This document shows positions 49,301-62,369 of a stretch of 64,000 bases of DNA, piece after piece (within the stretch, counting starts at the first letter, position 1; each line of letters opens with the position of its first letter). Where the stretch lies: assembly GCA_002504405.1 (NCBI GenBank), contig DARO01000006.1, positions 19,189 to 83,188 of the forward strand, in the 5' to 3' direction. The position numbers and the translations under genes are program-made. This DNA comes from Methanomassiliicoccaceae archaeon UBA71. Its GTDB lineage: Archaea; Thermoplasmatota; Thermoplasmata; Methanomassiliicoccales; Methanomethylophilaceae. The notes below the pieces were generated by a model, which was not told the origin of the DNA, searched no databases, and saw nothing but the letters and a program-made list of their open reading frames with translations.

Positions 49301-50706
49301 TCCTCTACACTCAATGTCTTCCCGTTAAGATCGAGCGTGATTGAACAGTCCGGTTTGTCAAACAGGATTCCATCTTCCTGATCGATGTTATCCTGTAGCT
49401 TGATTGTGTCTCCGTTCTGTGCGTATTCTAACGCATCGTTCAACGATCCATAGTATCTGTCTCCTACTGATGCCACACCATATGTCCTCAACGAGACGGT
49501 ATAGATCCCTTCGTTTTCAGTCTGTATGGCATAACCAGCAACATATGCCTCAACATTACTGGAAAAGGTGCCTCCTGTTATGCAGGCTCCTCCGATAGCG
49601 TAATTCTGATTATTCACTGAAACAGAGGTCTTGCCAGCATCTCCGCCAATGAATGTTCCGCCATAGATCATGACGGTCGATGATTCTCCAGCACCACTGT
49701 CAGGTGGCGGGTTTCCATTACCCACCAGGATTGCGGTTTTCGAAAATGACTCGAATGTTCCGCCATAGATGCTAGTACTGGTAGTATAAGATTCTCCTGT
49801 GAAATAACCTGCATAGAATGATGAAGTGCCGTTTGTATGGACATTACATGCTTCGGTACTATATTGACCGTTGTAAATATCCGATGTTCCTCCTATAACA
49901 GCGAGTCCTCCTTGGACACCGGTGACTTTCACGCTGTCATCCGATTCTCCCTTGATTTGGAGATATGCTGATTCGGAGTTTTCGCCGCTACGTATCGTAT
50001 AACCCCATTTACCATCGCATGACGAGCATGAGGTGTTGATGAACTCACCCGCGGTGATGTACATGTCACCGCGGTTCTCAACCGAAGGATACGTTTCGTT
50101 TTCATAGTATCCACCATTGATGTGTGTGGTTGTATTGATCTCAGATGCGATGCATCCTCCGCCACCATGAATTGTAACGTTGTTGAAAATGGCTAATCCA
50201 CCATCCCTGTTATAGAAATTGAATGCATCGGAATCTTTGAGATTGGTGTATGTTCCTCCGTTAACAATCAGTGTGCCGAAATTATTGACGGTTCCATATG
50301 CATTATTATTGCCAGCTACTACAGAACCTTCTACTCCGTTTATAGTAAGGGTGCCATAATTTCCGAATACTCTTCCGCCAGACGTCGGATTGAATGTTAT
50401 TGTCTTTTTATTCAGATTGATGACGACATTCTTTCCAGATTCTATGTTGAATTGAACTTTTGATTCGATATTATTTGTAAGCGTTATTTCCACATTCGTG
50501 TAGTTTTCAATAGCGGAAACCAATTCATCGAAATTTGTTACATCCACTTCTGTATAAGTGACTAGTACGGAATCTTGGATATCCTGTGTGTTGTCTGCAT
50601 TCACTGCAGGCATACATGCTAGTGCTATGCATGCTATTGCAATCACAACTAGCATCTTACTGAAACCCATAACCCCCGCATTTTTCCATTCGGTGATTAT
50701 TTTCAT
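46357..50706 (-). CDS. Large adhesin-like surface protein (1449 aa)
   Basis: Signal peptide, beta-helix-type G/N/T-rich modules, T/E/D-rich stalk, FQTDHFSLFVV domain and C-terminal TM. Confidence 0.88.
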   Translation of the reverse strand: MKIITEWKNAGVMGFSKMLVVIAIACIALACMPAVNADNTQDIQDSVLVTYTEVDVTNFDELVSAIENYTNVEITLTNNIESKVQFNIESGKNVVINLNKKTITFNPTSGGRVFGNYGTLTINGVEGSVVAGNNNAYGTVNNFGTLIVNGGTYTNLKDSDAFNFYNRDGGLAIFNNVTIHGGGGCIASEINTTTHINGGYYENETYPSVENRGDMYITAGEFINTSCSSCDGKWGYTIRSGENSESAYLQIKGESDDSVKVTGVQGGLAVIGGTSDIYNGQYSTEACNVHTNGTSSFYAGYFTGESYTTSTSIYGGTFESFSKTAILVGNGNPPPDSGAGESSTVMIYGGTFIGGDAGKTSVSVNNQNYAIGGACITGGTFSSNVEAYVAGYAIQTENEGIYTVSLRTYGVASVGDRYYGSLNDALEYAQNGDTIKLQDNIDQEDGILFDKPDCSITLDLNGKTLSVEEGKNVNNRAFKIESGILNVIDSSAEKTGKIIATGSGTTTSEGEGAFGTFRVESNGIIKLTGIALQNSRPWGMNVKVCGGEAYLTDVIIISSYGGGIEVTEADLGEQSKKGKAELINCTIIQTGYNDWCSSAISVSGGSYLTVYGGSYESAGHAIYVFSSGGYITVEDGYYYGNIGSICAEIDTGTYPEYEGGVVINGGMFYGAFQITSPATLEIRGGAFDANPSDYVSGNVEVESVSDYYVVGEPLFQVGEDKYVILDNALQNAPTGSTIILLNDITDRTGLRIQGEKDLTLDMMGHTVTFGYGIENAVIDFAGTTSLTIVGDGTFTIDDGYMITNSLGYTFRLYDQAKILIENGTFNCGLTCIQLADESSAEIHGGHFSAYADWNGKYWILNKIDNSDTTFAVSGGTFVNFDPGHSETENPADSFLSDGYYSSPTMDGDDTVWTVNRLVATVGDTNYSSIQEAMEAADGSAVVIETDLSDPVNVISETVEMDLNSHSITGIVTVGGSLTLTGTGTVSSVVLSSTSAKLVVGGPTVTSVTDSVSYYHVVSSTVDGVTTYSLARTSSGGGGTVTPPVTPDEPGTDVEEHPDGSTTETTTETTTNPDGSKTETTTVTEKDPEGNVTGSTVTETTTSEKEEDGVRETVTSTTVTTSDADGNKTGSTSASTTTTVTDSTTTVVEKEEVMDADDNVTSSTEKVTETTRIDGGTVTSETTEVKDADGNVTSSTESVRAESDDGDVRTEATTESGSTTVSTTVSVSSSGRIDDALIQQAVAQSDAVSEKVSAESPDRVIQIGTGSGTDVTLSPESMSAIAGTGAEFRVISETGSMQLDRDVVGTLTEPGEDVTVRMAESDDSELTEAQLSAKGDRFGVTLTATVGTDIVHLLGGTVTVTIPYADIMGSDPSSLGVFYIDGDGVRTFMDSVYDRALRSFVFQTDHFSLFVVDDLPASESGDDTLLYAGIAAVMAVAIVAVAVVVLHRKH

Positions 50707-50753
50707 ATTATCTCCACACAGGAGGCGGGGGAAGAATCCAAAAGATGGTCGAA

Positions 50754-50764
50754 CCCCCCCCCCC
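50754..50764. repeat. C11 homopolymer (G11 on the coding strand) 48 nt upstream of the adhesin start
   Basis: Eleven consecutive C at 50754-50764, seen directly. Confidence 0.9.
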
Positions 50765-51146
50765 GCTATAGTCCTTTTTGACTATGGGTTTGTATCCAAT
50801 TTTTTTATTTTTAATGTTTCTAGTTCTTAGAGTGTCATAAGGTGCAATTCAAGCACTGTTTCCTTTTCCAATTCCATAACTCAAAGCGAAAATCAAGCGA
50901 TCTGGTCCATCAACGTCTGTTGTTGAAAATAATTCAGAAGTCCTTCCCCGACCTCTTGTTTCTATACTACTTCGAAAACAGTATCTTCGTCACAGACCTG
51001 TCGCACTCAATAATGATATGGAACCCCTGTCACCGATACTGTAAAGTCTGAACAGACTGTCTATAGATTCTCATTTTCTCGGTTTCTGTGACGTCATCAT
51101 TCATACTCCAACTGTTATAATGAACATCTTCCCGTTCCCATGATAA

Positions 51147-51404
51147 TCTTTCGAGGCACCCCTGACAATTAGTAGGATTACGTATTATTTCGTCAAGAAG
51201 GATCTAGGCTTCAAGTTCGACCTCCGCCAGTGTCGCAGGACGTTCGGCCAGAGGTATCTGGACAAAGACCTCGACATCGAGTCCACGAGCGTTCTGATGG
51301 GGCACGCATCGACGAAGACCACGGAGGGATTCTACAGCAGGAAGAGGCTCGACATGGCCATCGAGAACGCCATCGGTACATGGGACGACAATGGTGGACA
51401 GTGA
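51147..51404 (+). pseudogene. Tyrosine recombinase/integrase C-terminal remnant
   Basis: Manual translation gives VKKDLGFKFDLRQCRRTFGQRYLDKDLDIESTSVLMGHASTKTTEGFYSRKRLD, i.e. box II (xxxR, LMGH, catalytic Y). No start codon; in-frame stop at 51144. Confidence 0.85.
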
Positions 51405-51445
51405 AAATCGGGGGTCTCCGAGAACGTCTGGGTAGGGTAAAAGAA

Positions 51446-51472
51446 GTGGACAAGGCGAGAGTCACAATCGCC
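51446..51472 (-). other. tRNA-3'-end-like sequence, candidate att-site relic
   Basis: Minus strand reads G-GCGAT-TGTGACT-CTCGC-CTTGTCC-A-C, matching T-stem / 7-nt loop / T-stem / 7-nt acceptor / discriminator spacing, 42 nt after the integrase remnant. Confidence 0.35.
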
Positions 51473-51671
51473 CTAGCCAGCACATTCTATAACCACCCGA
51501 ATTTCACCGATTTGCCACAATTCGAACAGTAACTCTGTCCACTCTCCTACCTGCAATTTCTTGGTTGAACTCTAAAGGTCTAGCTAACGCCATCACTAGA
51601 TTTCTGGTTGTCAAAACGCTTTGCAAACCCCTTCCCAAACCCCTTAGAACACCTCGATAGGAGGAACAGAA

Positions 51672-52067
51672 ATGGCAGCAGAGAAAGCAGCTAACGGAGC
51701 GCAGAGCGCAGGAATGCAGAACGAGATCAGGACCGCCTTCGGGCAGGTCAACGTCGACCAGGACACCGCGACGCAGAAGACCCCCATCATGAGCTTCAGC
51801 AACGGCAACGTCTACATCGGCCTGAAACTGGTCTCCACCTTCGACCAGAAGACCAACACCCGCAGGGACCCCGTCCCGAGGATCACCGCGTCCTTCAACG
51901 GCAAGTTCGTCGAAGTGCCCCTCAACGGCAAGTGGTGGAGGTCCTTCGCCGACTTCGTGGAGAAGATGGCCGTGGCGATGGAGGGAGTCGATCTCCAGAA
52001 CTCCACCATCAACGATGACGTGGACTACGCCAAGGACATGATGGCCAAGTTCAGGACGAAGGAATGA
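51672..52067 (+). CDS. Hypothetical protein (first gene of the element)
   Basis: 131 aa with a GGAGG ribosome-binding site; beta-rich core then an amphipathic helix. Confidence 0.8.
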   Translation: MAAEKAANGAQSAGMQNEIRTAFGQVNVDQDTATQKTPIMSFSNGNVYIGLKLVSTFDQKTNTRRDPVPRITASFNGKFVEVPLNGKWWRSFADFVEKMAVAMEGVDLQNSTINDDVDYAKDMMAKFRTKE

Positions 52068-52267
52068 GCGGATACCGCGTGGACCACTGGTTCCTCTGGT
52101 CCAACGGGGAGGTCCGGTCGAAGACGTACCGGTACCCCACGTACGAGGAGGCCCTCGACAGGTTCGACAGATGCTCGGCCGTGGAAGGGTCCACCAGGGT
52201 CTCGCTCCGCAGGGTCGGCCCGAAGAGGTCGTCCTCCGCACTGAAGGTGTGGGAGGCGCCACTCTGA
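52064..52267 (+). CDS. Small hypothetical protein
   Basis: 67 aa with an ATGA overlap, followed by a hairpin. Confidence 0.65.
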   Translation: MSGYRVDHWFLWSNGEVRSKTYRYPTYEEALDRFDRCSAVEGSTRVSLRRVGPKRSSSALKVWEAPL

Positions 52268-52273
52268 CGGCCG

Positions 52274-52300
52274 GGGGACGGGACGGACCTTCCCGTCCCC
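52274..52300 (+). terminator. Hairpin after the first two element genes
   Basis: GGGGACGGGA-N7-TCCCGTCCCC. Confidence 0.6.
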
Positions 52301-52364
52301 TGAGAACATCCTTACCCGGTAGGACACCAACCGGGAACATGTGTGAAACAAACAGGTGATCAGA

Positions 52365-53270
52365 ATGGCGCAGCCCAGGAAGCTCTCGCCCTCCGAGCTC
52401 TCGCAGATGATGTCTTCGATGAGCCCCCAGAGGGCGACCCGCTTCTACAACAGGTGCATGACCAACCCCGACACCCCTCAGGAGAACATCATGCTCCTGA
52501 GGCAGTTCAGGGACCAGAACCCCGACAGGTTCCTGTCGGACGAGCAGATGAAAGGGAACAGGGGATTCAAGGGATCCTGGACCTTCGGGAAGGGATTCTC
52601 CGGAGGGTACCGTGAGAAGTCCTTCGGCAGGGTCTACGACTCCGACGGGTTCTCCTACGACCGGTACGGCAACAGATACGACGACCGCGGCAACTACGCC
52701 GACGGCTACCAGGACGGAGGCTCCGAGAGGTTCCAGGGCAACTGGAGCCCCAACGGCTTCTCCGAATACTATGGGGCCCACAATCAGAAGCCCAGGTTCA
52801 GGAGGAGGAAGCCGATCGGAGATCCCAGGAGCTACGACGAGCTCGGGCAGACCCTCATGTCCTTCGACAGCGACGTCGCCAGGACCCGCTACTTCATGAA
52901 GGTCGTGAACAACCCCGAGACCAACCCCGACACCCTGAACAACCTCGTGAGGTTCAGGAACAACAACCCCCAGATCTTCGCGTCGGACGACGAGGCGAGG
53001 GCCCACGGCCCCACGATGAAGCCCAGGCAGGGGTTCTGGTCATCGTTCTGGAAGTCCGACGACGAGTTCTCCTCCATGTCCCCGAAGAAGCAGAAGTTCT
53101 TCGTCAGAGCGTTCAGGGGCAGGAACCGCGCCCGCAACACGGCGTACGGACTCCGCGTCATGACAAACCCGCAGACCTCGATTGAGGACAAGCAGGCCAT
53201 GGCCGAGGTCGTGAACGAGAACCCCGGGCTCTTCTTCAAGAGCGCCGGCGGAGGCCAGAGGCAGGGCTGA
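52365..53270 (+). CDS. Cytoplasmic protein with three ~40-aa repeats and G/R/Y/F-rich linkers
   Basis: AGGTGAT ribosome-binding site; repeated NP[DEQ]T...NPxxFxS units. Confidence 0.8.
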   Translation: MAQPRKLSPSELSQMMSSMSPQRATRFYNRCMTNPDTPQENIMLLRQFRDQNPDRFLSDEQMKGNRGFKGSWTFGKGFSGGYREKSFGRVYDSDGFSYDRYGNRYDDRGNYADGYQDGGSERFQGNWSPNGFSEYYGAHNQKPRFRRRKPIGDPRSYDELGQTLMSFDSDVARTRYFMKVVNNPETNPDTLNNLVRFRNNNPQIFASDDEARAHGPTMKPRQGFWSSFWKSDDEFSSMSPKKQKFFVRAFRGRNRARNTAYGLRVMTNPQTSIEDKQAMAEVVNENPGLFFKSAGGGQRQG

Positions 53271-53278
53271 GTGGTCGC

Positions 53279-55558
53279 ATGGGCATCGGATCCGTCATCA
53301 AGGCAGCGGCGGCGCTGGCCGTCCTCATGGCAATCGTCGTGGTCCCGATGTCCTCCGACGAGTCGGATGCCTACGAGGCCGAGTTCACCGCGGAGATAAC
53401 CCTGGACCTGGGAGAGTACGTGAGCATCGACGTCCAGGACCACATCGGCGACTACAGCTTCAAATACTGCATGAACACGAAGTACTCCAGCGACGACCGC
53501 CTGCCCACCGGGCTCACCAGGGACGGGAGCATCGTCTCCGGGACCCCGACGAAGATAGGCGAGTACGTCACGCAGTACGAGTTCACCGATTCCTCGGTGT
53601 CCCTGTGGCGCGACGTGAAGCTCGTCGTCTACTGGACGGTCGAGGACCTGCCCGAGGAGTACACCGTCACCTACGACGCGGGCATCGGCAGGGTCAACGG
53701 CTCCGGCACGTGGAGCGAGACCATAACCGAGGGCACCTACGCGTCCCTGCCGAATGCGGTCCACTCGTCCGGCGCGTACACGTTCAAAGGCTGGTCCCTC
53801 TCCGAGACCTCAGCCTCCACCATCGGATCGCTCGGGGTGACGTCCGACGTGACCCTGTACGCCGTGTGGGAGAGGAACACCGTGTCCGTCGGATCCGTGA
53901 CAGCCACCATATCCCACGACCAGTCCTCGTCGGTCCCGGTGGTCACGGACCCCGAAGACGCCAGGATATCCGTGTCGGATTACGGCGGGCTGTCGCAGGG
54001 CAACGTGAGGGTGTCCAACCGCACCCTGATACTGGACATGACCGGCGTGGAGCCCGGCACGTACTACGTGACGATATCGGCCAGCAGCACCGGCTACTAC
54101 ACCGGCACCGCCACCGTCACCGTCAGGGTGCCGATAACCATCGTCAAGCCCATAGAGTACACCCTGTCGCAGGGCGACCTCTTCTCGTACACGCCGGTGA
54201 CCAACCCTTCGAACGCGTCCGTCGGCCTCCTGTCCGTGATGATCGACGGCGTCCCCGCGGACACGGACCTCCGCGTCTCCGGAAGGACCATCACCGGCAT
54301 CCTGGAGGACCCGGGGACGTACGAGATCTCCTACCGCGCGTACCTGGACGGGTACGTGGAGGTGGTGAACTCCGTCATCGTCTACGTCTCCGACAGGTCC
54401 GACGTCCCCGGCACGGGCTCCCCGTCCGTCGCATCGGTCACCGCATCCGCCAGGGCTTCCGAGCCCAGGGTGTTCGACTTCGTGGCCATCGGCGGAACGA
54501 ACGTGTCGAACTACGTCTGGTCGGTGGACGGGAAGACGTTCGCCTCGTCGTCGGAGACCGCCCTGTACGAGTTCCCCGCATCGGGGATCTACACGGTGGC
54601 CTGCACCGCCAGGGGATTCGACGGGTCCGAGGTCACACTGGAGATCACGGTGGTCTGCAGGGACAACTACCACAGGGAGGCCGCATGGTCCGGAGTCGGG
54701 TACGCGTACATCGTCGAAGGCGATGCGGGCGTCGAGGTGCCGGACCAATGCCCGTTGAAGGGGACGGTCGAGACCATCGACGGCATGGTGTTCACGGTCC
54801 TCTCCGGGACCCCCTCCGAGGAGGACGTCGGCAGCTCCTTCGACGTTAGTGTCGGAGGAGAGTCTTGGATGGTCACCGTCTACGGGGCGGAGGTCTCCGC
54901 GCCCACGGCATCGTTCTCGGTGACCGTGGACGGCTACACCGCCAAGGCCGTGTTCACGGGCCTCCGCGCGTCGTTCCACATGTTCGACTTCGACGGGGAC
55001 GGCACGTTCGAGGACGGTTCGGAATTCCGGTACGACCGCCCCGGAAGGTACACCGTCGTGTGCAAGGCCGTGAACAACGTCTCCGAGGTCACGTCCACGG
55101 CGTACGTCGAGGTGGACATCGTCCCGCAGGAGGACACCACCCTGGACGGCCTCACCGACTTCCACATCGGCGTCGGGGAGAGGATGCACATCTCAGTCTC
55201 GATCGGGGACGGCGACGTGCTGTCCGTATCCGGTTCGGCGGCGTCCTTCGTCACCGTCGAGGGGTCCACCCTCGTGGTCGCCCCCGTGGAGTCCGGCGTG
55301 TTCGACCTCACCGTCACGGTCACCCATCCGGACGGGACCTCCGAGTCCAGGACCGTCGAGGTCACCGTGAAGCACGAGGGGCCCGACCCGGTCCCGGACT
55401 CCGGAGGGGACCTCACCGCGGTCATGGTGCTGATCTCGCTGGCGTCCGTGGGTTCGATAGCGGGGTTCCTCGTCTACGACACCCGCGCAGGGAAGGCGTC
55501 CGGCGGGCGCCGCTCACCCCGGACCAGGTTAGGGAGCGGATGGGGGCGCAGGAGATGA
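53279..55558 (+). CDS. Membrane-anchored surface protein with Ig-like, InlB B-repeat (Flg_new) and PKD-like domains
   Basis: Signal peptide SDESDA; YTVTYDAG...FKGWS...TLYAVWE; PKD-like DFDGDG...PGRYTV; C-terminal TM. Confidence 0.85.
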   Translation: MGIGSVIKAAAALAVLMAIVVVPMSSDESDAYEAEFTAEITLDLGEYVSIDVQDHIGDYSFKYCMNTKYSSDDRLPTGLTRDGSIVSGTPTKIGEYVTQYEFTDSSVSLWRDVKLVVYWTVEDLPEEYTVTYDAGIGRVNGSGTWSETITEGTYASLPNAVHSSGAYTFKGWSLSETSASTIGSLGVTSDVTLYAVWERNTVSVGSVTATISHDQSSSVPVVTDPEDARISVSDYGGLSQGNVRVSNRTLILDMTGVEPGTYYVTISASSTGYYTGTATVTVRVPITIVKPIEYTLSQGDLFSYTPVTNPSNASVGLLSVMIDGVPADTDLRVSGRTITGILEDPGTYEISYRAYLDGYVEVVNSVIVYVSDRSDVPGTGSPSVASVTASARASEPRVFDFVAIGGTNVSNYVWSVDGKTFASSSETALYEFPASGIYTVACTARGFDGSEVTLEITVVCRDNYHREAAWSGVGYAYIVEGDAGVEVPDQCPLKGTVETIDGMVFTVLSGTPSEEDVGSSFDVSVGGESWMVTVYGAEVSAPTASFSVTVDGYTAKAVFTGLRASFHMFDFDGDGTFEDGSEFRYDRPGRYTVVCKAVNNVSEVTSTAYVEVDIVPQEDTTLDGLTDFHIGVGERMHISVSIGDGDVLSVSGSAASFVTVEGSTLVVAPVESGVFDLTVTVTHPDGTSESRTVEVTVKHEGPDPVPDSGGDLTAVMVLISLASVGSIAGFLVYDTRAGKASGGRRSPRTRLGSGWGRRR

Positions 55559-55719
55559 CCGACGTCCAGATCCCGATAACCACGGTGTGGGACGTGATCG
55601 CCGACGCCCTGGACGACCCCTGGTTCTGGATGGTCTCTCTGGGCGCGACCCTGTGCCTCGCCCTGGCCTTCAGGTACCTCCACGACAGGGGGTGCCGCCG
55701 ATGCCGATCCCCGCGATAG
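55555..55719 (+). CDS. 54-aa single-TM protein
   Basis: MTDVQIPITTVWDVIADALDDPWFWMVSLGATLCLALAFRYLHDRGCRRCRSPR. GGAG ribosome-binding site and ATGA overlap. Confidence 0.65.
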   Translation: MTDVQIPITTVWDVIADALDDPWFWMVSLGATLCLALAFRYLHDRGCRRCRSPR

Positions 55720-57419
55720 TGGGCACCATCGTGTCCGTCCTCGGATGGATAGGCATCGACCTGGGCATCTCCTGGCTGACCAAGGGTGACCTCCAGGTCG
55801 AGTACGTCCGCGGTCTGGACTTCCCCTCCTTCATAGAGCTCTACTGGCTGTCGCTGCTCCTCTACGGGGCGGCGATGCTGGCGGTGCTCAGGATCGCACT
55901 GCCCGGGAACGCATGCGGGCGCGGCCCCCGCCATCGAGGCCGCGACAAACAGCTTGATACAATGAGCGAAACGAGTTACATCACGGCCCTCGTCGCCGCC
56001 CTCGCGAGCATCATCGCCGCCGTGTCCCTCATACCCGTGAGCGACGCGGTCGGGGAGGACCTCTCCGGGACATACGGCGAGGCGACCGTGATCGAGATAG
56101 CACCCGGGTTCGAGTGGCGCTACACGCCCTCCTTCCCGGACGACCTGACAGAATACGTGACGGTGTCCCTGAAGGTCAACGACTCGGGGATAGGGTACGT
56201 CGACGGGAGGATGGTCGTGGTGACCATACCCGGGGACGCGCTCCCGGGCACGACATACAACGTCGTCATCGAGGCGTCCATGACCGAGCCGGTCGAGCAG
56301 ACCGCGTACCAGTACGTGAGGTTCGTCGTGGTCGACGGACTGAGCGTCAGCGGGACCATCAACGACATCATCTCCGGGACGAGGATCGACTTCTCCCCCA
56401 TCGGCCAGTCCGACATGGGGGACATAACCTGGACCGTCAAGGCGGGGACCGAGCTCCCCGAGGGCCTCGAACTTGCCGACGGCAAGGTGTCCGGAACACC
56501 CACCGGAATCGGACCGCAGACCGTGTCCCTGACCGCCAGCTGCATGGGCGAGACCGCCGACCTCGTGGTGACGTTCACCGTCTACTCCGAGATCGTCGGC
56601 GACTCCGAGGAGACCATCGCCTCCTACGGGACCCCCGTCTCTTCTAGAGCGATAACCAACGCCGAGGACATCGGCGTCATCTGGACAGTCTCCGGGGGGA
56701 CCCTTCCCGCGGGATTCTCCCTCGACTCTGCGACCGGTGTGGTCAGCGGGTCCTCCGCCGAGGTGAAGGAGACCGTCGTCACCATAACCGGGACCAGCAC
56801 CCACGGCCCCGAGCAGACCGTGACCAAGCAGATCGCCATCCGCTCCGAGCCCGACCTCGTCCTCTCCTCGGAGGACGGCATCCTCACCTACCTGGACAAC
56901 GCCGATGCCGTGACGGCCACCGTCGCCGCCACCCAGACCTCCCGGATCTCCTGGCAGGTCTCCGGATACGACGGGGCCACGGTCTCCGACGGGGTCGTCT
57001 CCGTCGTCAGCCCCGCGACCGCCGGTATGGGACAGGAACTGACGGTCACCGCCACCACCGCATACGGGCAGACCGAGACCGTCCGTGTCGACCTGGACGT
57101 CGAGGACACCCTGACCATCTCAGGCGACGACCTCGTCAGCGCCATCGTCGGAACCCCGAAGCTCACATCGGCATTCGCTATCGGAGGGGGCTCCTCCAAC
57201 ATCCTTGCCGCATCCACCGGGACCGTCGGTCTTGCAGCCACAATCCAGGACGGATGCCTGAGCGTTCAGAGCGCCTCCCCGATGCAGGACGCCGAAGTCA
57301 CCGTCACAGTCACGTCCGCTGCGGGACAGTCCGCTTCCGCGACTGTCACCGTGGACGTGTACAACGTCCTGGTTTTCAACTCCCAGCCCGCCGGCGGTGC
57401 CGTGATCTACCCGATGTGA
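55701..57419 (+). CDS. Secreted Ig-repeat protein, with an N-terminal 87-aa membrane segment fused in frame
   Basis: LPxGL/LSGTP-type putative Ig repeats. Second signal peptide at the ATG at 55962. Ends LVFNSQPAGGAVIYPM with no TM. Confidence 0.8.
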   Translation: MPIPAIVGTIVSVLGWIGIDLGISWLTKGDLQVEYVRGLDFPSFIELYWLSLLLYGAAMLAVLRIALPGNACGRGPRHRGRDKQLDTMSETSYITALVAALASIIAAVSLIPVSDAVGEDLSGTYGEATVIEIAPGFEWRYTPSFPDDLTEYVTVSLKVNDSGIGYVDGRMVVVTIPGDALPGTTYNVVIEASMTEPVEQTAYQYVRFVVVDGLSVSGTINDIISGTRIDFSPIGQSDMGDITWTVKAGTELPEGLELADGKVSGTPTGIGPQTVSLTASCMGETADLVVTFTVYSEIVGDSEETIASYGTPVSSRAITNAEDIGVIWTVSGGTLPAGFSLDSATGVVSGSSAEVKETVVTITGTSTHGPEQTVTKQIAIRSEPDLVLSSEDGILTYLDNADAVTATVAATQTSRISWQVSGYDGATVSDGVVSVVSPATAGMGQELTVTATTAYGQTETVRVDLDVEDTLTISGDDLVSAIVGTPKLTSAFAIGGGSSNILAASTGTVGLAATIQDGCLSVQSASPMQDAEVTVTVTSAAGQSASATVTVDVYNVLVFNSQPAGGAVIYPM

Positions 57420-58993
57420 TGGCCATGAATGAGAACAGGAGGCTGATGTCGGCGCTCGCCCTATTCGCCGTGACGGCGATGGTGCTGTTGTCCTGCGTGT
57501 CGCTTGCATCCGAGGAGTCGGACGCCGTCGCGGGCACCTTCACCGGCGGGACCAACGTCAGCTCCCCGACGAACCCCTACACGGAGATCAACTGCGACAT
57601 CTCCGACCTCGAGGTCAGCTTCGCCTTCGACACATGGGAGGTGTACTACGTCGAGCTCGGCTCGTACCTGAAGGTCACCGGATTCGGCCCGGACTACGGT
57701 CGCGACTACGACACAGGCCATCTGGTCCTGACCATGGTCGACGGCATCTGGACCGGCGACGAGATCCGCGCGTACTTCTACGACACGGGAAGGGCCACGC
57801 TCCAGACCGCCGAGGACTACTTCGTGATCTTCGAGGTGGTCTGCACCAACGACACCAAGGTACAGTCCATCACGGTCACCGGGGCGTCCTCCGGGACGTA
57901 CACCACCGGGTACCGCCCCGACGGCCCCAACTACGAGAAGGACCTGATGATCTACACCACCCCCAGGTACAGCGCGGACCCCGCCCCGACCACTTCGGTG
58001 AGGATCACGCAGACCTCCGGGTTCGACGTGGCGGACCTCAGGCACGGGATCTCGGCCTCCGGGCTGGTCCCCTACCTGCACTTCACCCCCATAGGCATCG
58101 GGACGGCGACGTTCCTGATCGAGGCCACCGACGGCGGTGGGGCGTCCACGACGCTCACCGTGGTCGTCAACGAGTACGTGACCGGGACCCTGACGTTCAA
58201 CGCCAACGGGGGCTCGGGGGCGCCTGCGGACATGGAGGACGAGTCCTACACGGGCAAGTTCTACTACGAGATCCCCCAGCAGGAGCCCGTCCGTTCCGGA
58301 TACGGGTTCCTGGGATGGGCGGAGAGCAGGTACGCGACGGAGCCGGAGTACTTCTACGACGGCCAGAACGACCTGGGATGGAGGTACTCCACGTCCTCCG
58401 CTGCGTCCACCCTGTACGCGGTGTGGGAGCAGACGGTTCAGACGTACACCGCATCCCTGGTGTACGACGCGAACGGAGGGTCCGGGGCCCCCGCGAGCCA
58501 GACCTCCTCCATTACGGGGACGTCCCCGTCGGGGTCCAAGTCGTTCATCGTGACGGACGACGTCCTCGTGCGCGACGGATGCGTCTGTGTCGGATGGGCG
58601 CTGTCCTCCGGTGCGGCGACCGCCCAGTACCACGCCGGCGATTCGGTGTCGGTGTCCTACGGGTCCTCCCTCACACTCTACGCGGTGTGGGAGCAGGCCT
58701 CGATCACCATGACCGGCTCCCCCAACGGGTTCGGGGTCGTGGGGACCTCCTGGAGCTACGCCCCGACCCTGAGCGTCGACGGGTGCACGCTCAGCGTGAG
58801 CGGCGCATCCTGGATGGTGGTCTCCGGAGACACCGTCGTGGGCACGCCCACATCCGCAGGGACCTTCGAGATAACCGTGACGGCGCAGAAGGCGGGATAC
58901 CAGTCCGCGACCCAGACGTTCACCGTCAAGGTCCTCTCCAACCTGTCCTTCCGGTCCTCTCCCGAGGGAGGTGCGATAATCTATGCAGTCTAA
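57419..58993 (+). CDS. Secreted protein with two InlB B-repeats and Ig-like domains
   Basis: Signal peptide SEESDA; two xANGGSGAP...GW...TLYAVWE units. Ends LSFRSSPEGGAIIYAV with no TM. Confidence 0.85.
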   Translation: MAMNENRRLMSALALFAVTAMVLLSCVSLASEESDAVAGTFTGGTNVSSPTNPYTEINCDISDLEVSFAFDTWEVYYVELGSYLKVTGFGPDYGRDYDTGHLVLTMVDGIWTGDEIRAYFYDTGRATLQTAEDYFVIFEVVCTNDTKVQSITVTGASSGTYTTGYRPDGPNYEKDLMIYTTPRYSADPAPTTSVRITQTSGFDVADLRHGISASGLVPYLHFTPIGIGTATFLIEATDGGGASTTLTVVVNEYVTGTLTFNANGGSGAPADMEDESYTGKFYYEIPQQEPVRSGYGFLGWAESRYATEPEYFYDGQNDLGWRYSTSSAASTLYAVWEQTVQTYTASLVYDANGGSGAPASQTSSITGTSPSGSKSFIVTDDVLVRDGCVCVGWALSSGAATAQYHAGDSVSVSYGSSLTLYAVWEQASITMTGSPNGFGVVGTSWSYAPTLSVDGCTLSVSGASWMVVSGDTVVGTPTSAGTFEITVTAQKAGYQSATQTFTVKVLSNLSFRSSPEGGAIIYAV

Positions 58994-59936
58994 GAATATC
59001 ATCATGGCAGCGACGGCCCTGGCCGTCATCTCCCTCGTCCTGTCGGCGATCCCGCTCGACCCCGCTTCGGCGGAGGATCAGGACTACGACGTGGACTACG
59101 GGAGCTTCTACAGCTACACGCTGCAGTTCGTGTTCGACGGGAGCAACGCCGAGACCATCGAGTGGGACTTCGGCGACGGCTCCCCGGTGTCGACGGAGTG
59201 GAACCCCTCCCACACCTATTCCGAGGAGGGTGTCTACTACGTGACGCAGACAACAACCAACTCCTACAACGGGGGCTCCACCACGGTGGAAGTCTACAGG
59301 GCGGCGGTGATGGGATTCCCCGTCATCACCTTCGACTCCATGGGCGGGCCCCAGGTCCAGGAGATACGGCAGAGTGCCTACGGCGTCCCCGCAACCAAGC
59401 CGGCGGACCCCGTCAGGTCCGGGTACGGGTTCGGGGGATGGTTCACGTCCTCGGAGCTCACGGATGAGTACGACTGGTCCTCCGATGTGAAGAGGTCGTT
59501 CACCCTGTACGCGAAGTGGATCCCCACGGGCCCCGTGGTCCCGGGGACTTTCGAGATCGCCTTCGACGTCAACGGCGGCTCCGTGGACGTCCCGACCGTT
59601 TCCGCGGATTCGGGATCGTCCATTGTCCTGCCGTCCTACGGCGGCACGAAGGACGGGTACGGGTTCGCCGGATGGCTAATCGGGGATATGATCCTCCAGC
59701 CCGGGGACTCCGTCACCGTCACCGGTGATATGAAGGTCACCGCGGTATGGGAGGAGTCCCCCGGAGGCGATGATGGACCCGACGGGCCGGAGGGTCCCGG
59801 GGACGGCGCCGACGACGCGCCCGCAGACGGATCGGACGGGATCCTCGAGGCGCTGATCCTACTCGGGATCGTCATCGTGGCGATCGTCCTGGCCGCGTAC
59901 GCGTACCACGTCCGCGACGGCGGAGAGAGGCGCTGA
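58983..59936 (+). CDS. Membrane-anchored PKD + two InlB B-repeat protein
   Basis: WDFGDG...PSHTYSEEGVYYV (PKD); two GYxFxGW B-repeats; C-terminal TM. Confidence 0.88.
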   Translation: MQSKNIIMAATALAVISLVLSAIPLDPASAEDQDYDVDYGSFYSYTLQFVFDGSNAETIEWDFGDGSPVSTEWNPSHTYSEEGVYYVTQTTTNSYNGGSTTVEVYRAAVMGFPVITFDSMGGPQVQEIRQSAYGVPATKPADPVRSGYGFGGWFTSSELTDEYDWSSDVKRSFTLYAKWIPTGPVVPGTFEIAFDVNGGSVDVPTVSADSGSSIVLPSYGGTKDGYGFAGWLIGDMILQPGDSVTVTGDMKVTAVWEESPGGDDGPDGPEGPGDGADDAPADGSDGILEALILLGIVIVAIVLAAYAYHVRDGGERR

Positions 59937-59937
59937 G

Positions 59938-60405
59938 ATGTCCGCCTGGAGCAGCATCGCGAAGGCCCTCTCCAAGCTCGTCAGGGGAGGCGGGGGCAAG
60001 GTCGCGGCATCCGGGGCGGCCGAGGCGGCCCAGGCGGGAACCAAGGTGATCCTGACCTGGGGCAACGCCTTCAAGGTCGCCGTGGTCGGGTGCTTCTCCT
60101 ACCTCTTCCTCACCGGGGGGCTGTCCAACGTGGTGTCCACCACGCTGGGCATCCCCGAGGAGGTGGCCCAGGTGATCGTCATCGTGGTGTTCGTGTTCCT
60201 GCTGGCACTGGCCGTCCGCTACCTCGTGAACTACGCCCGCGACAGGATGGACCTGAAGCAGGAGTACCTGGACACTCCTATCCTCACGAGGCGCTCCGGG
60301 CAGGACTACGGAAACCAGAGGTCCGGTCAGCAGTACTTCGGGCCCAGACAGGGATGCTACGACCGCAGATACTACGACGGCTCCGACTGGAGGAGATACA
60401 GATGA
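59938..60405 (+). CDS. Two-TM protein with an R/Y/G-rich C-terminal tail (candidate virion matrix/coat protein)
   Basis: Amphipathic N-terminus, two hydrophobic helices and a basic aromatic tail. Confidence 0.75.
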   Translation: MSAWSSIAKALSKLVRGGGGKVAASGAAEAAQAGTKVILTWGNAFKVAVVGCFSYLFLTGGLSNVVSTTLGIPEEVAQVIVIVVFVFLLALAVRYLVNYARDRMDLKQEYLDTPILTRRSGQDYGNQRSGQQYFGPRQGCYDRRYYDGSDWRRYR

Positions 60406-60677
60406 TGTGGATACCTCTGATGTCGGGGATCATCAACGCGGTGTTCATCCTGGATCTCATCGTGACGCTCTCCACGGGCGACGACCTGGCCCACCTCCTG
60501 CTGGACGCATCGGGGAACACGGTGGCCTCCGCGATAACGGAGAACATCCCCACCGACCCGGCGGTGTTCTGGCTGCTGTCCGGGTTCATCCTGGTGTTCG
60601 TGTGCGCCATCGAGTGCCTGCTGATCTACATCGCGTTCTACTCGGACATCTCCAAGTGCAGGGGGGCGATGGGATGA
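60402..60677 (+). CDS. 91-aa two-TM membrane protein
   Basis: MMWIPLMSGIINAVFILDLIV...FWLLSGFILVFVCAIECLLIYIAFY. ATGA overlap. Confidence 0.7.
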   Translation: MMWIPLMSGIINAVFILDLIVTLSTGDDLAHLLLDASGNTVASAITENIPTDPAVFWLLSGFILVFVCAIECLLIYIAFYSDISKCRGAMG

Positions 60678-60859
60678 ACGTCCCCAGGATAACCGTCGGG
60701 CTGCTGCTCTTCGTGGGCTCCGCGTGGCTGGTGCCCCTCATATCCGGGATGCTGGACATGGACGAGGCCCTGGTGTTCTCCACCGTAGGCAGCGTCATGG
60801 CGTTCGCCGGAGGAATGATCCTCTACTCGGGGGTGAGGAAATGTCCGCGCTGGTACTGA
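60674..60859 (+). CDS. 61-aa two-TM membrane protein
   Basis: MNVPRITVGLLLFVGSAWLVPLI...VMAFAGGMILY. ATGA overlap. Confidence 0.7.
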   Translation: MNVPRITVGLLLFVGSAWLVPLISGMLDMDEALVFSTVGSVMAFAGGMILYSGVRKCPRWY

Positions 60860-60951
60860 TCCTCTGCCTGATAGGGGCCTTCATCGGGTTCAGATGGAGC
60901 TTCTCCAGGTGCCTCCTGAAGGCGCAGACGCAGGTGAGCGATGTACTCTGA
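60841..60951 (+). CDS. 36-aa single-TM peptide
   Basis: MSALVLILCLIGAFIGFRWSFSRCLLKAQTQVSDVL. GGTGAGG ribosome-binding site; overlaps both neighbours. Confidence 0.5.
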   Translation: MSALVLILCLIGAFIGFRWSFSRCLLKAQTQVSDVL

Positions 60952-61762
60952 CACCGACCAGCCGAAGGGGTTCGACCCGACGGCGGACACCGTGCAGGAG
61001 CCCCGGCGGGACGCCGTCCCCGAGCAGGCCTACGCCGACATGCCGGGGGAGTCCCCGTGGAGGAAGGTGGCTGCTATTGCGGCGACCGCATCAGCCGGGT
61101 TCTTCGGAGTGTACGTGGCATGGAGGATCCTCGGAACCGACGCCATCGTCCAGGCCCTGCAGGAGTACTGGCCGGTCCTCCTGTCGCCGATAGCGGGCGC
61201 CCTGCTGGCCAGGTCCGTGGTCAGGTCCCTGTACCACCCCTCCGGCAGGGTTCTCATCCATCTGGATGTGGAGAACCATCTCCTGAGGGCGGTGTTCGTC
61301 CCCGACGACATGTTCCGCTACATCCAGCAGACGGGGAACAACGTGGTGTACCACACCGTGTCCGGCATCCCCGTCTACCTCGTGGAGGGGATGGACCTCG
61401 AACGCGGCATGGTGGACTACGGCTGGGTCCACACGGAGAACGCCCTCGTGGTGATGACCCGTGAGGACGCCTACCGCAAGTGGTACTCCACGCTCAACCT
61501 GGTGATGGAGGAGAACCTCGAACTGATGGTGCACCCGAAGGTAATCGGCCTGGGTTATGCCAGGTCCTCCCTTAGGAAGCACCTCGACAGGATCTCCTCC
61601 GCCCTCGGGCTGATCGAGGCCGACTACGAACCACACGACTCCGACGAGTCGGTCCCGGAGGACTACCTGGACCTCACCGTGAGCCCGAGGGATCCCGACG
61701 GCGGCCGTCCCCGCAAGGGCATGAGCCGGCGTCATGGAGGTGATTCGGATGGGCGCCAGTAA
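60941..61762 (+). CDS. Membrane protein preceding the ATPase
   Basis: Two N-terminal TM helices and a soluble C-terminal domain. GGTGA ribosome-binding site. Confidence 0.78.
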   Translation: MYSDTDQPKGFDPTADTVQEPRRDAVPEQAYADMPGESPWRKVAAIAATASAGFFGVYVAWRILGTDAIVQALQEYWPVLLSPIAGALLARSVVRSLYHPSGRVLIHLDVENHLLRAVFVPDDMFRYIQQTGNNVVYHTVSGIPVYLVEGMDLERGMVDYGWVHTENALVVMTREDAYRKWYSTLNLVMEENLELMVHPKVIGLGYARSSLRKHLDRISSALGLIEADYEPHDSDESVPEDYLDLTVSPRDPDGGRPRKGMSRRHGGDSDGRQ

Positions 61763-62369
61763 GGCCGTCGACTACATCTCGGGGATGGAGCACGGTGTCA
61801 TCATCGCCGTGGGCAGCGGGAAGCAGGGCAAGTCCTGCTCCCTCCACTCCCTGATAGACCTGTGCTGGCACACCCGTCCGGTGTACCTGCTTGATCCGAT
61901 GGAGTACGACGTATCCATGTTCCCCGGGTACCGCAGGGTCTCCGACCCCAACGACATCCCCGTGGGATCCGTGGCCGTCATAGAGGACGTGAACAGGGTG
62001 TTCCACTCCCGCGGATCGGGGAAGGATGCGACGCTCCAGCGCTGGCTGGGGATCATCTCCCACAAGTCCACCGTGGTGTGCATCACGACCCAATCGATGG
62101 CGGGAACAGACATTGAGTTCGTGAGGTCCCAGGACGCGGTGGTCATGTGCAAGAGGATGCACGACGAGGACCTGGCGTTCGAGAGGCCGGAGTTCAGGAC
62201 CAACCAGGTCCTGGCCAACATCTGGATCGGGGAGTCGATAAGGCGGCATCCGGAACTCGAGCCGAGGAGCTGGTGCTTCTTCCCCCGTTTCAACGAATCC
62301 GTCGCGATACCGAAGGTCTGGTGGTGGTCCTACAGGAACAGCCACATGCTCAGGGACGTGAGACTGTGA
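61749..62369 (+). CDS. Small FtsK/HerA-superfamily P-loop ATPase (A32/Zot-like packaging or extrusion ATPase)
   Basis: Walker A GSGKQGKS, Walker B AVIEDVN, and ISHKSTVVCITTQ...DIEFVR matching the xRH-hhh-TQ...D..hR pattern. Confidence 0.8.
   Translation: MGASKAVDYISGMEHGVIIAVGSGKQGKSCSLHSLIDLCWHTRPVYLLDPMEYDVSMFPGYRRVSDPNDIPVGSVAVIEDVNRVFHSRGSGKDATLQRWLGIISHKSTVVCITTQSMAGTDIEFVRSQDAVVMCKRMHDEDLAFERPEFRTNQVLANIWIGESIRRHPELEPRSWCFFPRFNESVAIPKVWWWSYRNSHMLRDVRL

What the first reader, a model, noticed from the sequence alone, without database searches (positions are those of the whole stretch)
57350..58993. Two unanchored surface proteins end in the same C-terminal peptide: a possible assembly or sorting strand
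Seen: 55701..57419 ends VDVYNVLVFNSQPAGGAVIYPM and 57419..58993 ends VKVLSNLSFRSSPEGGAIIYAV, consensus LxFxSxPxGGA[VI]IYx-COOH. Their other domains differ and neither has a TM anchor. The flanking proteins (53279, 58983) have TM anchors and lack the motif. Established: terminal beta-strands drive polymerisation by strand complementation in bacterial chaperone-usher and type V pili. Inference: the motif docks these secreted subunits onto an anchored partner or particle, building a modular fibre or spike.
Basis: partly seen in the sequence, partly recalled or inferred. Interest (0 to 1): 0.72.

Follow-up and report, generated by a model that had tools for sequence, protein, structure and literature searches.

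The report
C-terminal docking tag on provirus adhesins
Two secreted, anchor-less surface proteins of an integrated virus-like element in a gut methanogen end in the same 17-residue tail; about 108 protein clusters worldwide carry it, always at the very C-terminus, and it most likely clips exchangeable adhesin rods onto membrane-anchored partners.

Summary
A (55962..57419) and B (57419..58993) end in VLVFNSQPAGGAVIYPM and NLSFRSSPEGGAIIYAV. The tail occurs nowhere else in the window.

A tail profile found about 108 clusters among 1.84 billion representative proteins. Every match lies within 11 residues of the C-terminus. No Pfam or NCBIfam model covers it.

AlphaFold2 folds both proteins as confident rods of Ig/cadherin-like domains. 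In both, the tail is an unstructured extension (pLDDT 41-67) after the last strand, so it is not the last strand of its own Ig domain.

The genes belong to a conserved mobile module of Methanomassiliicoccales with weak pleolipovirus affinities. In it, tail-bearing secreted proteins alternate with membrane-anchored PKD/Flg_new proteins.

Tails of different proteins in one element share an element-specific variant (permutation 0/20000), usually with different codons. Two elements in one genome keep different variants. B's Gly-Gly codons form the ribosome-binding site, and its Tyr-Ala codons the start codon, of the anchored gene D. One natural B-D fusion exists.

Best reading: an intermolecular docking tag. 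The partner and strand insertion remain untested, because no multimer prediction was possible.

The parts
55962..57419 (+). Gene A: secreted protein of 485 aa. Signal peptide, then five Ig/cadherin-like (He_PIG) domains, then the C-terminal tail. No TM anchor from this start.
   Evidence: AF2 model: mean pLDDT 89.6, beads-on-a-string Ig rod. 118/120 homologues end in the tail.
57366..57416 (+). Tail of A: VLVFNSQPAGGAVIYPM (17 aa), beyond the last Ig strand (residues 457-467).
   Evidence: DSSP coil; pLDDT 67 falling to 45.
57419..58993 (+). Gene B: secreted protein of 524 aa. Signal peptide, N-terminal beta-rich head, two Flg_new repeats, a He_PIG domain, then the C-terminal tail.
   Evidence: AF2 model: mean pLDDT 87.5. 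Cadherin/SraP-like rod.
58940..58990 (+). Tail of B: NLSFRSSPEGGAIIYAV (17 aa). The He_PIG profile ends at ...TFTVKVL.
   Evidence: DSSP coil; pLDDT 45/41 after last strand 497-506.
58967..58985 (+). Dual-use stretch inside B's tail codons. GGAGGT (the Gly-Gly codons) is a Shine-Dalgarno-like site; 10 nt later the ATG of gene D lies inside TAT GCA (Tyr-Ala).
   Evidence: The same arrangement is conserved in all six type-1 loci. D homologues start MQ....
58983..59936 (+). Gene D: signal peptide, N-terminal PKD domain, two Flg_new repeats, acidic linker, C-terminal TM helix and basic tail. It is the best candidate for the anchored acceptor.
   Evidence: 111/120 homologues have a C-terminal TM helix, and the mature N-terminus is conserved as YD.DYG.FYSYTLQFVFDG.
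53279..55558 (+). Gene C: 759-aa type-I membrane protein (signal peptide, Flg_new, Ig/PKD-like domains, C-terminal TM). It is the second anchored candidate partner.
   Evidence: Conserved in type-1 elements and related to the anchored protein that follows B in L020/L021.
55555..55719 (+). Small 54-aa TM protein between C and A.
   Evidence: Homologues of 48-58 aa in L001, L002 and L033.
55701..55961 (+). Small two-TM protein. It is a separate gene of about 80 aa in L002 and L033, but here it is in frame with A with no stop codon between them.
59938..62369 (+). Downstream conserved module: a 155-aa TM protein (59938-60405), a 91-aa two-TM protein (60402-60677), a 61-aa two-TM protein (60674-60859), a 273-aa one-TM protein weakly like HRPV-1 ORF7 (60941-61762), and a Walker-A NTPase with GSGKQGKS (61749-62369).
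   Evidence: hhalign against HRPV-1 ORF7: probability 53%, E 1.4e-4.
51672..53270 (+). Upstream conserved genes of the element (131 aa, about 67 aa, 304 aa). The G+C content rises from 0.47 to 0.63-0.66 here.
   Evidence: Same gene order in L001 and L002.

Best explanation
The shared ending is a true, strictly C-terminal assembly tag of 17-20 residues. Its consensus is [LM]-x-[FY]-x-[ST]-x-P-x(2-3)-G-h-h-h-[YFW]-x-h-COOH, where h is hydrophobic.

It is carried by the secreted, anchor-less, rod-shaped multi-Ig adhesin-like proteins of a group of mobile elements, probably pleolipovirus-like proviruses, of gut Methanomassiliicoccales.

The tag is not part of the preceding Ig domain and is flexible on its own. 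Most likely it folds on binding, as one or two added beta-strands, to a partner encoded by the same element. That would tether exchangeable adhesin or receptor-binding rods (A, B and their many domain-shuffled relatives) to a membrane-anchored stalk. The best candidate stalk is the PKD-Flg_new-TM protein D, made by translational coupling with B.

Shown here: the tag exists, is restricted to the C-terminus, is conserved, lies outside the fold, co-varies within elements, and sits next to anchored partners with coupling and one fusion.

Inferred: that it binds anything, which protein it binds, and that binding is by strand addition.
For: (1) Strict C-terminal position in about 108 clusters among 1.84 billion representatives, and in all 45 hits of the local six-frame search; never internal.

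(2) AF2 models of A and B are confident throughout (mean pLDDT 89.6 and 87.5). The tail follows the last strand as coil with pLDDT 41-67. Pfam He_PIG ends before the tail.

(3) The tail is as conserved as the folded body in family A (entropy 1.18 vs 1.28 bits) and more conserved in family B (1.20 vs 1.71). B-type proteins with very different domain sets and lengths (332-958 aa) carry the same tail.

(4) Tails of paralogues in one element share an element-specific variant. Identity is 0.67 within elements and 0.38 between; 0 of 20000 permutations reach the observed value. Identical residues often use different codons, for example 18 identical residues but only 4 identical codons in L002. This points to selection on the protein rather than recent gene conversion, except in L026.

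(5) Two elements in the same genome keep different tail variants: L021/L023 in Methanoprimaticola sp. MG2 and L020/L022 in one MAG. This fits an element-encoded partner better than a host factor.

(6) In every element type examined, tail proteins are followed by TM-anchored proteins. The window, L001 and L002 have A, B then D. L005-L007 have A then D', and B then a large anchored protein. L029 and L031 show the same alternation. Families A and D are of similar size (161 vs 169 hits).

(7) B's tail codons carry the Shine-Dalgarno-like site and the start codon of D in all six type-1 loci.

(8) P0017 (locus L033) is a natural fusion of the B head to D's stalk and anchor. It lacks both B's tail and D's signal peptide and PKD domain.
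Against: No direct test of binding was possible.

Concatenating the tail to mature D did not extend the PKD profile match.

In L033, D's PKD domain is lost yet A keeps its tail. Either PKD is not the only acceptor or that single-contig variant is defective.

Tight gene spacing and coupling are common in compact mobile elements and are not specific to interacting proteins.

In family A the tail is only about as conserved as the rest of the protein (rank 206 of 434 windows).

Part of the type-1 B tail is also constrained at the nucleotide level by D's ribosome-binding site and start codon.

Particle production by these elements is not shown here. Read depth in the source run is uniform, consistent with a silent single-copy integrated element.
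Confidence: 0.45

Rival explanations
1. Oligomerisation tag. The tails of A, B and further tail proteins zip together, like the C-terminal foldon hairpin of T4 fibritin, giving homo- or hetero-oligomeric fibres. Anchoring, if any, would be by other contacts.
For: It sits at the C-terminal end, is short and rich in beta-forming residues (G-A-I-I-Y-A-V), and is disordered in monomer models. Tails of different proteins in one element are kept alike, as expected if they pair with each other. The number of tail proteins per element varies from 2 to 4.
Against: It does not explain how anchor-less proteins stay on a membrane. It does not explain the regular alternation with anchored proteins, the B-to-D coupling or the B-D fusion. 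The rods look like monomeric Ig strings rather than coiled or trimeric fibre folds.
Confidence: 0.2
2. Enzyme-recognised sorting signal. A host or element transpeptidase or protease recognises the tail and attaches the protein covalently to a lipid or protein. This would resemble sortase or archaeosortase systems but without a TM segment.
For: An invariant Pro and a near-invariant Gly lie in a short terminal motif. Faint transglutaminase-core and peptidase-like hits lie near the cluster in two loci, L006 and L007.
Against: No TM helix or basic cluster follows the motif, and no NCBIfam CTERM model matches. No candidate enzyme is conserved across the element types. Two tail variants coexist in one host genome, and tails co-vary within elements, which argues against one host enzyme.
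Confidence: 0.12
3. Direct ligand peptide. The hydrophobic tail binds the membrane or a host-cell receptor itself.
For: The last 6-7 residues are hydrophobic and aromatic, and the host group lacks an S-layer or cell wall (PMC10673518).
Against: Six hydrophobic residues cannot span or firmly hold a bilayer. Many variants end in charged residues (..AFAE..AYVK..FYLED). The tail is the constant part, while the N-terminal heads are the variable, receptor-like part.
Confidence: 0.08
4. No separate function. The tail is conserved only as a by-product of overlapping signals for the next gene (ribosome-binding site and start codon), or is a vestige of a lost Ig domain.
For: In type-1 elements the codons of B's tail are the Shine-Dalgarno-like site and the start codon of D. 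The tail resembles the first two strands (LSS / ILTY) of internal Ig domain 4 of A.
Against: A's tail and all type-2 tails keep the motif without such an overlap, with stop codons followed by 2-15 nt spacers. Conservation holds at the amino-acid level across different codons. The motif persists in about 108 clusters at 50% identity with different downstream genes.
Confidence: 0.05

Closest known systems
Dockerin-cohesin assembly of cellulosomes
   Same: Many secreted proteins with unrelated cargo domains share one conserved, usually C-terminal, docking module. That module binds non-covalently to an anchored partner encoded nearby. Specificity 'dialects' co-evolve and stay orthogonal between systems. 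This is the closest functional analogy.
   Different: A dockerin is a folded calcium-binding domain of about 60-70 residues. Here the module is a 17-20-residue peptide that is unstructured alone. There is no sequence relation, and no cohesin-like domain was identified.
Type V pili of Bacteroidia (FimA/Mfa1): C-terminal strand donation
   Same: As proposed here, C-terminal strand(s) of one subunit would fill a groove in the Ig-like domain of the next subunit. (How type V pili work is from my own knowledge.)
   Different: Type V pilins are lipoproteins matured by an arginine protease and they homopolymerise. No conserved lipobox, no such protease and no repeating pilin were found here. Strand insertion was not tested.
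Chaperone-usher pili; archaeal threads, cannulae and bundling pili (donor-strand complementation)
   Same: A terminal beta-strand completes a neighbour's incomplete fold. Archaeal precedents exist (PMC9715654; 10.1101/2024.12.30.630787; PMC12337348).
   Different: To my knowledge the donor in those systems is an N-terminal strand of a single repeating subunit. Here the tag is C-terminal, sits on several different multi-domain proteins, and there is no chaperone or usher.
C-terminal sorting signals (PGF-CTERM/archaeosortase, LPXTG/sortase, GlyGly-CTERM/rhombosortase)
   Same: A short conserved motif at the extreme C-terminus of secreted surface proteins.
   Different: All of those have a TM helix and a basic cluster after the motif. 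Here the protein ends 1-3 residues after the aromatic residue, or up to about 10 mostly acidic residues in some variants. No NCBIfam model matches.
Pleolipovirus morphogenetic module (VP4 spike, ORF6/7, VP8 NTPase)
   Same: The gene order and sizes are similar: spike-like type-I membrane proteins, then small TM proteins, a one-TM protein of about 270 aa and a small NTPase. The 273-aa family shows weak similarity to HRPV-1 ORF7. VP4-like proviruses are reported in Methanomassiliicoccales (PMC10919331), and Flg_new proteins in their viruses (PMC10673518).
   Different: No VP4-like fold or sequence was shown here. A is an Ig rod, not V-shaped. The NTPase shows no detectable similarity to VP8. To my knowledge, known pleolipovirus spikes are single anchored proteins without separate soluble subunits.
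T4 fibritin foldon and phage receptor-binding-protein anchor domains
   Same: A small terminal element is responsible for assembly, while the rest of the fibre varies.
   Different: The foldon is a trimerising hairpin on a coiled-coil fibre, and phage anchor domains are usually N-terminal folded domains. No similarity was detected.

Membership tests
PGF-CTERM / archaeosortase-type sorting signal | The motif is followed by a hydrophobic TM helix and a basic cluster at the C-terminus. | tested here: not met
   The proteins end 1-3 residues after the aromatic residue, or with short acidic extensions. No TM segment follows. No NCBIfam CTERM model hit at E<=0.1.
LPXTG / sortase signal | An LPXTG-like pentapeptide followed by a TM helix and basic residues. 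| tested here: not met
   No LPXTG and no TM helix after the motif. No NCBIfam CTERM or sorting-signal model matched.
Chaperone-usher donor-strand exchange | An N-terminal donor extension on a pilin whose Ig fold lacks strand G, with a dedicated chaperone and usher. | tested here: not met
   The tag is C-terminal. The Ig domains of A and B are complete in AF2 models. No chaperone or usher families were found in the element.
Type V pilus (FimA/Mfa) strand exchange | A lipoprotein precursor with a lipobox, and proteolytic removal of an N-terminal strand. | tested here: not met
   The signal peptides end in ...SDA-type sites, and no cysteine is conserved across homologues.
Type V pilus (FimA/Mfa) strand exchange | C-terminal strand(s) inserted into the groove of the neighbouring subunit. 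| not testable with these tools
   A multimer prediction is needed.
Self-contained Ig domain (the tail is its last strand) | The tail is packed as a strand of the preceding domain, and the same sequence recurs at internal domain ends. | tested here: not met
   The tail is coil with pLDDT 41-67 after the last strand in both models. He_PIG ends before it. No internal HMM hits.
Split PKD domain (tail supplies the missing first strand of D's PKD) | Joining the tail to mature D restores a full-length PKD profile match. | tested here: not met
   The PKD_4 and PKD matches still begin at profile positions 13-17, with unchanged scores (39.7 vs 39.5/40.3 bits). Simple concatenation is a crude test.
Pleolipovirus-like provirus (context) | A VP4-like fusogen. 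| not tested
   No sequence hit of C or A to solved structures.
Pleolipovirus-like provirus (context) | A conserved ORF7-like protein and an NTPase downstream of the spike genes. | tested here: inconclusive
   The 273-aa family against HRPV-1 ORF7 gives hhalign probability 53%, E 1.4e-4, at equivalent positions, plus a phrog_5952 hit at 5.6e-5. The NTPase against VP8 shows no similarity. No hit in INPHARED or IMG/VR.

The most novel reading that the evidence does not exclude
The tail is a plug-and-play adaptor peptide. By beta-strand addition it mounts interchangeable soluble adhesin or receptor-binding rods onto membrane-anchored stalk proteins of enveloped archaeal viruses. Element-specific 'dialects' keep co-resident viruses from cross-assembling. 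To my knowledge this would be the first multi-subunit, non-covalently assembled spike described for pleomorphic archaeal viruses, and a new class of C-terminal assembly signal in archaea.
Probability: 0.35. Interest if true: 0.78.

Novelty: new variant of a known kind. Interest (0 to 1): 0.62.

Why it matters
Gut Methanomassiliicoccales remove trimethylamine and make methane. Their viruses are almost unknown: this module gave no hit in IMG/VR or INPHARED.

A short, strictly C-terminal tag shared by about 108 clusters of otherwise shuffled adhesin-like proteins would be useful in three ways:
- It gives a simple marker for finding these elements.
- It offers a testable answer to how anchor-less Flg_new/Ig adhesins are displayed on an envelope or on a wall-less cell.
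- If the docking model holds, it is a compact peptide-acceptor pair with natural orthogonal variants, of interest for display engineering.

It also turns the question 'what do virus-encoded adhesins of gut archaea attach to' into a small set of defined binding experiments.

Tried and rejected
(1) AF2 of a pseudo-complex (D ectodomain, GS linker, last Ig domain plus tail of A), with 16 naturally paired chimeras and 50 D homologues. A first alignment was misaligned by MAFFT. No multimer test was therefore possible.

(2) Pfam scan of tail plus mature D chimeras. The PKD match was not extended.

(3) NCBIfam, Pfam and PHROGs models for the tail: none.

(4) Sequence searches of C, A and the A profile against PDB chains. 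Only SraP-like cadherin modules were found, and no VP4.

(5) Fold searches of A and B against the PDB, and of A against the viral library. Only generic Ig/cadherin strings were found.

(6) IMG/VR scan with the A profile, and INPHARED tblastn with the NTPase and the 273-aa protein: nothing.

(7) hhalign of the NTPase against HRPV-1 VP8: nothing.

(8) Medvedeva et al. 2023, the likely source describing these proviruses, is not held in the library.

(9) Read evidence for excision or replication. Only the source run holds the sequence, as contigs, with uniform depth.

(10) Rejected: 'gene conversion alone explains shared tails'. Codons differ at half or more of the identical residues in most elements.

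(11) Rejected: a 'tRNA-adjacent att site in the window'. No tRNA gene was found.
Full report
**1. The observation**

ORF listing and six-frame motif scans confirm both endings. A stops at 57417-57419 after ...VDVYNVLVFNSQPAGGAVIYPM. B stops at 58991-58993 after ...VKVLSNLSFRSSPEGGAIIYAV. The motif occurs nowhere else in the 64 kb window.

The flanking genes C (53279..55558) and D (58983..59936) each have an N-terminal signal sequence and a C-terminal TM helix plus basic tail. Neither has the motif.

One correction is needed. This is a separate gene of about 80 aa in L002 and L033, and gene-sized conserved ORFs upstream of A in L012, L013 and L016 agree. In this window and in L001 it is only in frame with A. 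A most probably starts at ATG 55962 (MSETSY..., signal peptide).

**2. More than chance**

Of the 120 best database homologues of B, 108 end in the same kind of peptide. Of the 120 best homologues of A, 118 do, and the other two are fragments.

A 24-residue HMM of the tail was run against all 8205 six-frame segments of the window and 28 related loci. It gave 45 hits, every one 0-6 residues from a stop codon or, for one, at the end of the contig (L018), and none internal.

A 32-column profile was scored against every one of 1.84 billion representative proteins. It gave 119 hits at E<=0.001. 108 cover the tail, and all of these end within 11 residues of the C-terminus. The other 11 are giant repeat proteins that match only the preceding Ig strand.

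Variants include LSFESSPTGGAIIYAV, LGFNSVPGANGMFAFAE, LGFESEPGADGIIAYVK, MGFTSEPGFDGIYAYVE, LGFSSVPSSGIIAYEG and LAFANTPAIGVIGA. Pro is invariant, and Leu and Phe are at least 90% conserved. No Pfam, NCBIfam or PHROG model covers the tail.

**3. What the proteins are**

Pfam finds He_PIG in A; Flg_new in B; PKD plus two Flg_new repeats in D; and Flg_new in C plus sub-threshold PKD-like matches.

AlphaFold2 with 96 homologues folds A with mean pLDDT 89.6 into five Ig/cadherin-like domains. The last strand is residues 457-467. The tail (468-485) is coil, with pLDDT falling from 67 to 45. With 61 homologues, B folds with mean pLDDT 87.5. Its last strand is 497-506, and the tail (507-524) is coil at pLDDT 45/41. 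The He_PIG profile ends at ...TFTVKVL, before the tail.

Fold searches give only strings of Ig or cadherin domains: titin, contactins, cadherins, SraP and phage Ig proteins. The tail is therefore not the last strand of a self-contained domain, and it is not reused internally.

One lead remains. The junction before Ig domain 4 of A (EPDLV-LSS-EDG-ILTY) looks like the tail, and in the model it forms the first two short strands of that domain. The tail may therefore be an 'orphan' pair of opening strands. However, the tail HMM does not detect that junction, so the resemblance is weak.

**4. Context: a conserved mobile module**

The same gene order recurs in Methanomassiliicoccales genomes and in gut metagenomes. 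The carriers include Methanomethylophilaceae MAGs, Methanoprimaticola sp. MG2, ISO4-G1 and LGM-DZ1. It also occurs on 12-19 kb contigs that were binned into bacterial MAGs.

- Type 1 (window, L001, L002, L009, L012, L013, L016): three small genes, C (anchored), two small TM proteins, A (tail), B (tail), D (anchored), three small TM proteins, a one-TM protein of about 270 aa, and a Walker-A NTPase.
- Type 2 (L005-L007, L020-L027): A (tail), D' (PKD-Flg_new with two TM helices), B (tail), sometimes further tail proteins, a large anchored Flg_new protein, then a protein of about 640 aa with a signal peptide and two TM helices.
- Distant elements L029 (17.8 kb, with integrase and a rolling-circle Rep) and L031 show the same alternation of tail protein and anchored protein.

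The window's G+C content jumps from 0.47 to 0.63-0.66 at about 52 kb.

The 273-aa protein family aligns weakly with ORF7 of the pleolipovirus HRPV-1 (hhalign probability 53%, E 1.4e-4) and hits phrog_5952. The NTPase shows no detectable similarity to VP8. Published work reports VP4-like pleolipovirus-type proviruses, and virus-encoded Flg_new proteins, in this order (PMC10919331; PMC10673518). I could not read the primary description.

The module has no match in IMG/VR or INPHARED. In the source run the element has the same depth as its flanks, about 130 against 135-146. It is therefore integrated and single-copy there.

**5. Evidence about function**

(a) Tails of different proteins in one element share an element-specific variant. 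Examples are PSSG..AYEG twice in L017, NTPAIGVIG twice in L031, and MGFTSEPGFDGIYAYV twice in L006. The mean A-versus-B tail identity is 0.67 within elements and 0.38 between. None of 20000 permutations reaches the observed value. A and B are different families that separated before the elements diversified. Independent drift would not produce this pattern.

(b) The likeness is held at the protein level. In L002, 18 identical residues use only 4 identical codons. Only L026 shows near-identical DNA, indicating recent conversion or duplication.

(c) Two elements in one genome keep different variants (L021 and L023 in Methanoprimaticola sp. MG2; L020 and L022 in one MAG). This favours an element-encoded partner over a host enzyme.

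(d) D-type proteins are as numerous as A-type proteins (169 vs 161 hits). 111 of 120 are TM-anchored. All carry the PKD domain directly behind the signal peptide, with a conserved mature N-terminus YD.DYG.FYSYTLQFVFDG.

(e) In all six type-1 loci the Gly-Gly codons of B's tail form GGAGG(T/A). Ten bases later the ATG of D lies inside B's Tyr-Ala codons. B and D are thus translationally coupled, and D proteins begin MQ....

(f) P0017 in L033 is a natural fusion made by a crossover between the Flg_new repeats of B and D. B residues 1 to about 297 are joined to D residues 142-317. B's tail and D's signal peptide plus PKD domain are lost together, and B's head sits directly on D's stalk and anchor.

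(g) Type-2 elements also encode hybrids that combine a D-type N-terminal PKD with a tail variant (..PSAEGIEAVVKG). Such proteins could both accept and donate a tail.

**6. Counter-evidence and limits**

I could not run any complex prediction.

Adding the tail to mature D does not extend the PKD profile match.

In L033, A keeps its tail although D's PKD domain is gone. Either another acceptor exists (C, or D's Flg_new stalk), or this single contig is a defective variant.

In family A the tail is only about as conserved as the folded body. In family B it lies in the top quarter of windows.

Tight gene spacing is normal for compact elements. No experiment shows that these elements make particles.

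**7. Conclusion**

This is a previously unmodelled, strictly C-terminal 17-20-residue tag on the secreted Ig-rod adhesins of Methanomassiliicoccales mobile elements.

The best-supported reading is an intermolecular docking tag that ties exchangeable soluble rods to element-encoded membrane-anchored partners. D is the first candidate, and I give this reading confidence of about 0.45. It works like a miniature dockerin. It may bind by strand addition, as in type V pili or archaeal donor-strand filaments.

The rivals are a tail-tail oligomerisation tag (0.2), an enzyme-recognised sorting signal (0.12), a direct ligand peptide (0.08), and a by-product of overlapping gene signals (0.05).

The tag is not a member of the PGF-CTERM, LPXTG, chaperone-usher or type V pilus families. 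For each, a defining feature was tested and not met.

Noticed in passing
window 55701-55961 and 55962: The small two-TM protein, a separate gene of about 80 aa in L002 and L033, has no stop codon before A in this window or in L001. The longest ORF therefore fuses it to A. It is unclear whether a fused, N-terminally anchored A is ever made.
   Followed up: partly
window 58967-58985; L001, L002, L012, L013, L016 (B 3' ends): B's tail codons double as the Shine-Dalgarno-like site GGAGG(T/A) and as the ATG of D, which lies inside TAT GCA. This is conserved in all six type-1 loci. It places a nucleotide-level constraint on part of the tail and indicates B-to-D translational coupling.
   Followed up: yes
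L033 6268-7662 (protein P0017): A natural B-D fusion made by a crossover inside homologous Flg_new repeats. B's tail and D's signal peptide and PKD domain are deleted together. It is seen on a single 10.4 kb contig.
   Followed up: yes
L020 / L022 (one MAG); L021 / L023 (Methanoprimaticola sp. MG2): Two different elements of this kind lie in the same genome. Each has its own internally consistent tail variant.
   Followed up: partly
L005 11687-12871; L007 12324-13502; L027 10078-11265: Hybrid proteins with a D-type N-terminal PKD and Flg_new, but with a tail variant (..PSAEGIEAVVKG) in place of a TM anchor. They could act as adaptors that both accept and donate a tail.
   Followed up: no
L007 20759-21325: A 188-aa ORF outside the adhesin cluster, with no Pfam hit, also ends in a tail-like peptide (PLKFVSTPRYGGVFAWVV). 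This is a further family that may carry the tag.
   Followed up: no
window 57390-57409 and 60542-60553 (run X1): A low-depth contig (16.8 against about 130) joins 57409, inside A's tail codons, to 60542, skipping B, D and the next gene. Loose contig ends lie at 57390 and 60553. This may be a minor deletion variant or an assembly artefact, since only 20 bases lie on the shorter side of the joint.
   Followed up: partly
window 46357-50706 (- strand) and 48000-52000: A 1449-aa adhesin-like protein with a C-terminal TM anchor lies just upstream of the element. Its N-terminal half, together with the intergenic stretch to about 51.6 kb, forms a low-G+C island (0.47 against about 0.60).
   Followed up: no
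window 53279, 55962, 57419, 58983 (N-termini); related loci: Most secreted proteins of these elements have signal peptides ending in an acidic ...(S/D)(E/D)SDA or ...DADA-type site just before the mature N-terminus (D itself ends ...PASA). This may be a signal-peptidase signature of the lineage.
   Followed up: no
L001 17019-17676; L007 5252-6426: HepT/MNT-type (nucleotidyltransferase) toxin-antitoxin genes lie next to the elements in L001 and L007. DUF3800 genes also lie next to or inside the elements in several loci (L002-L004, L007, L008).
   Followed up: no
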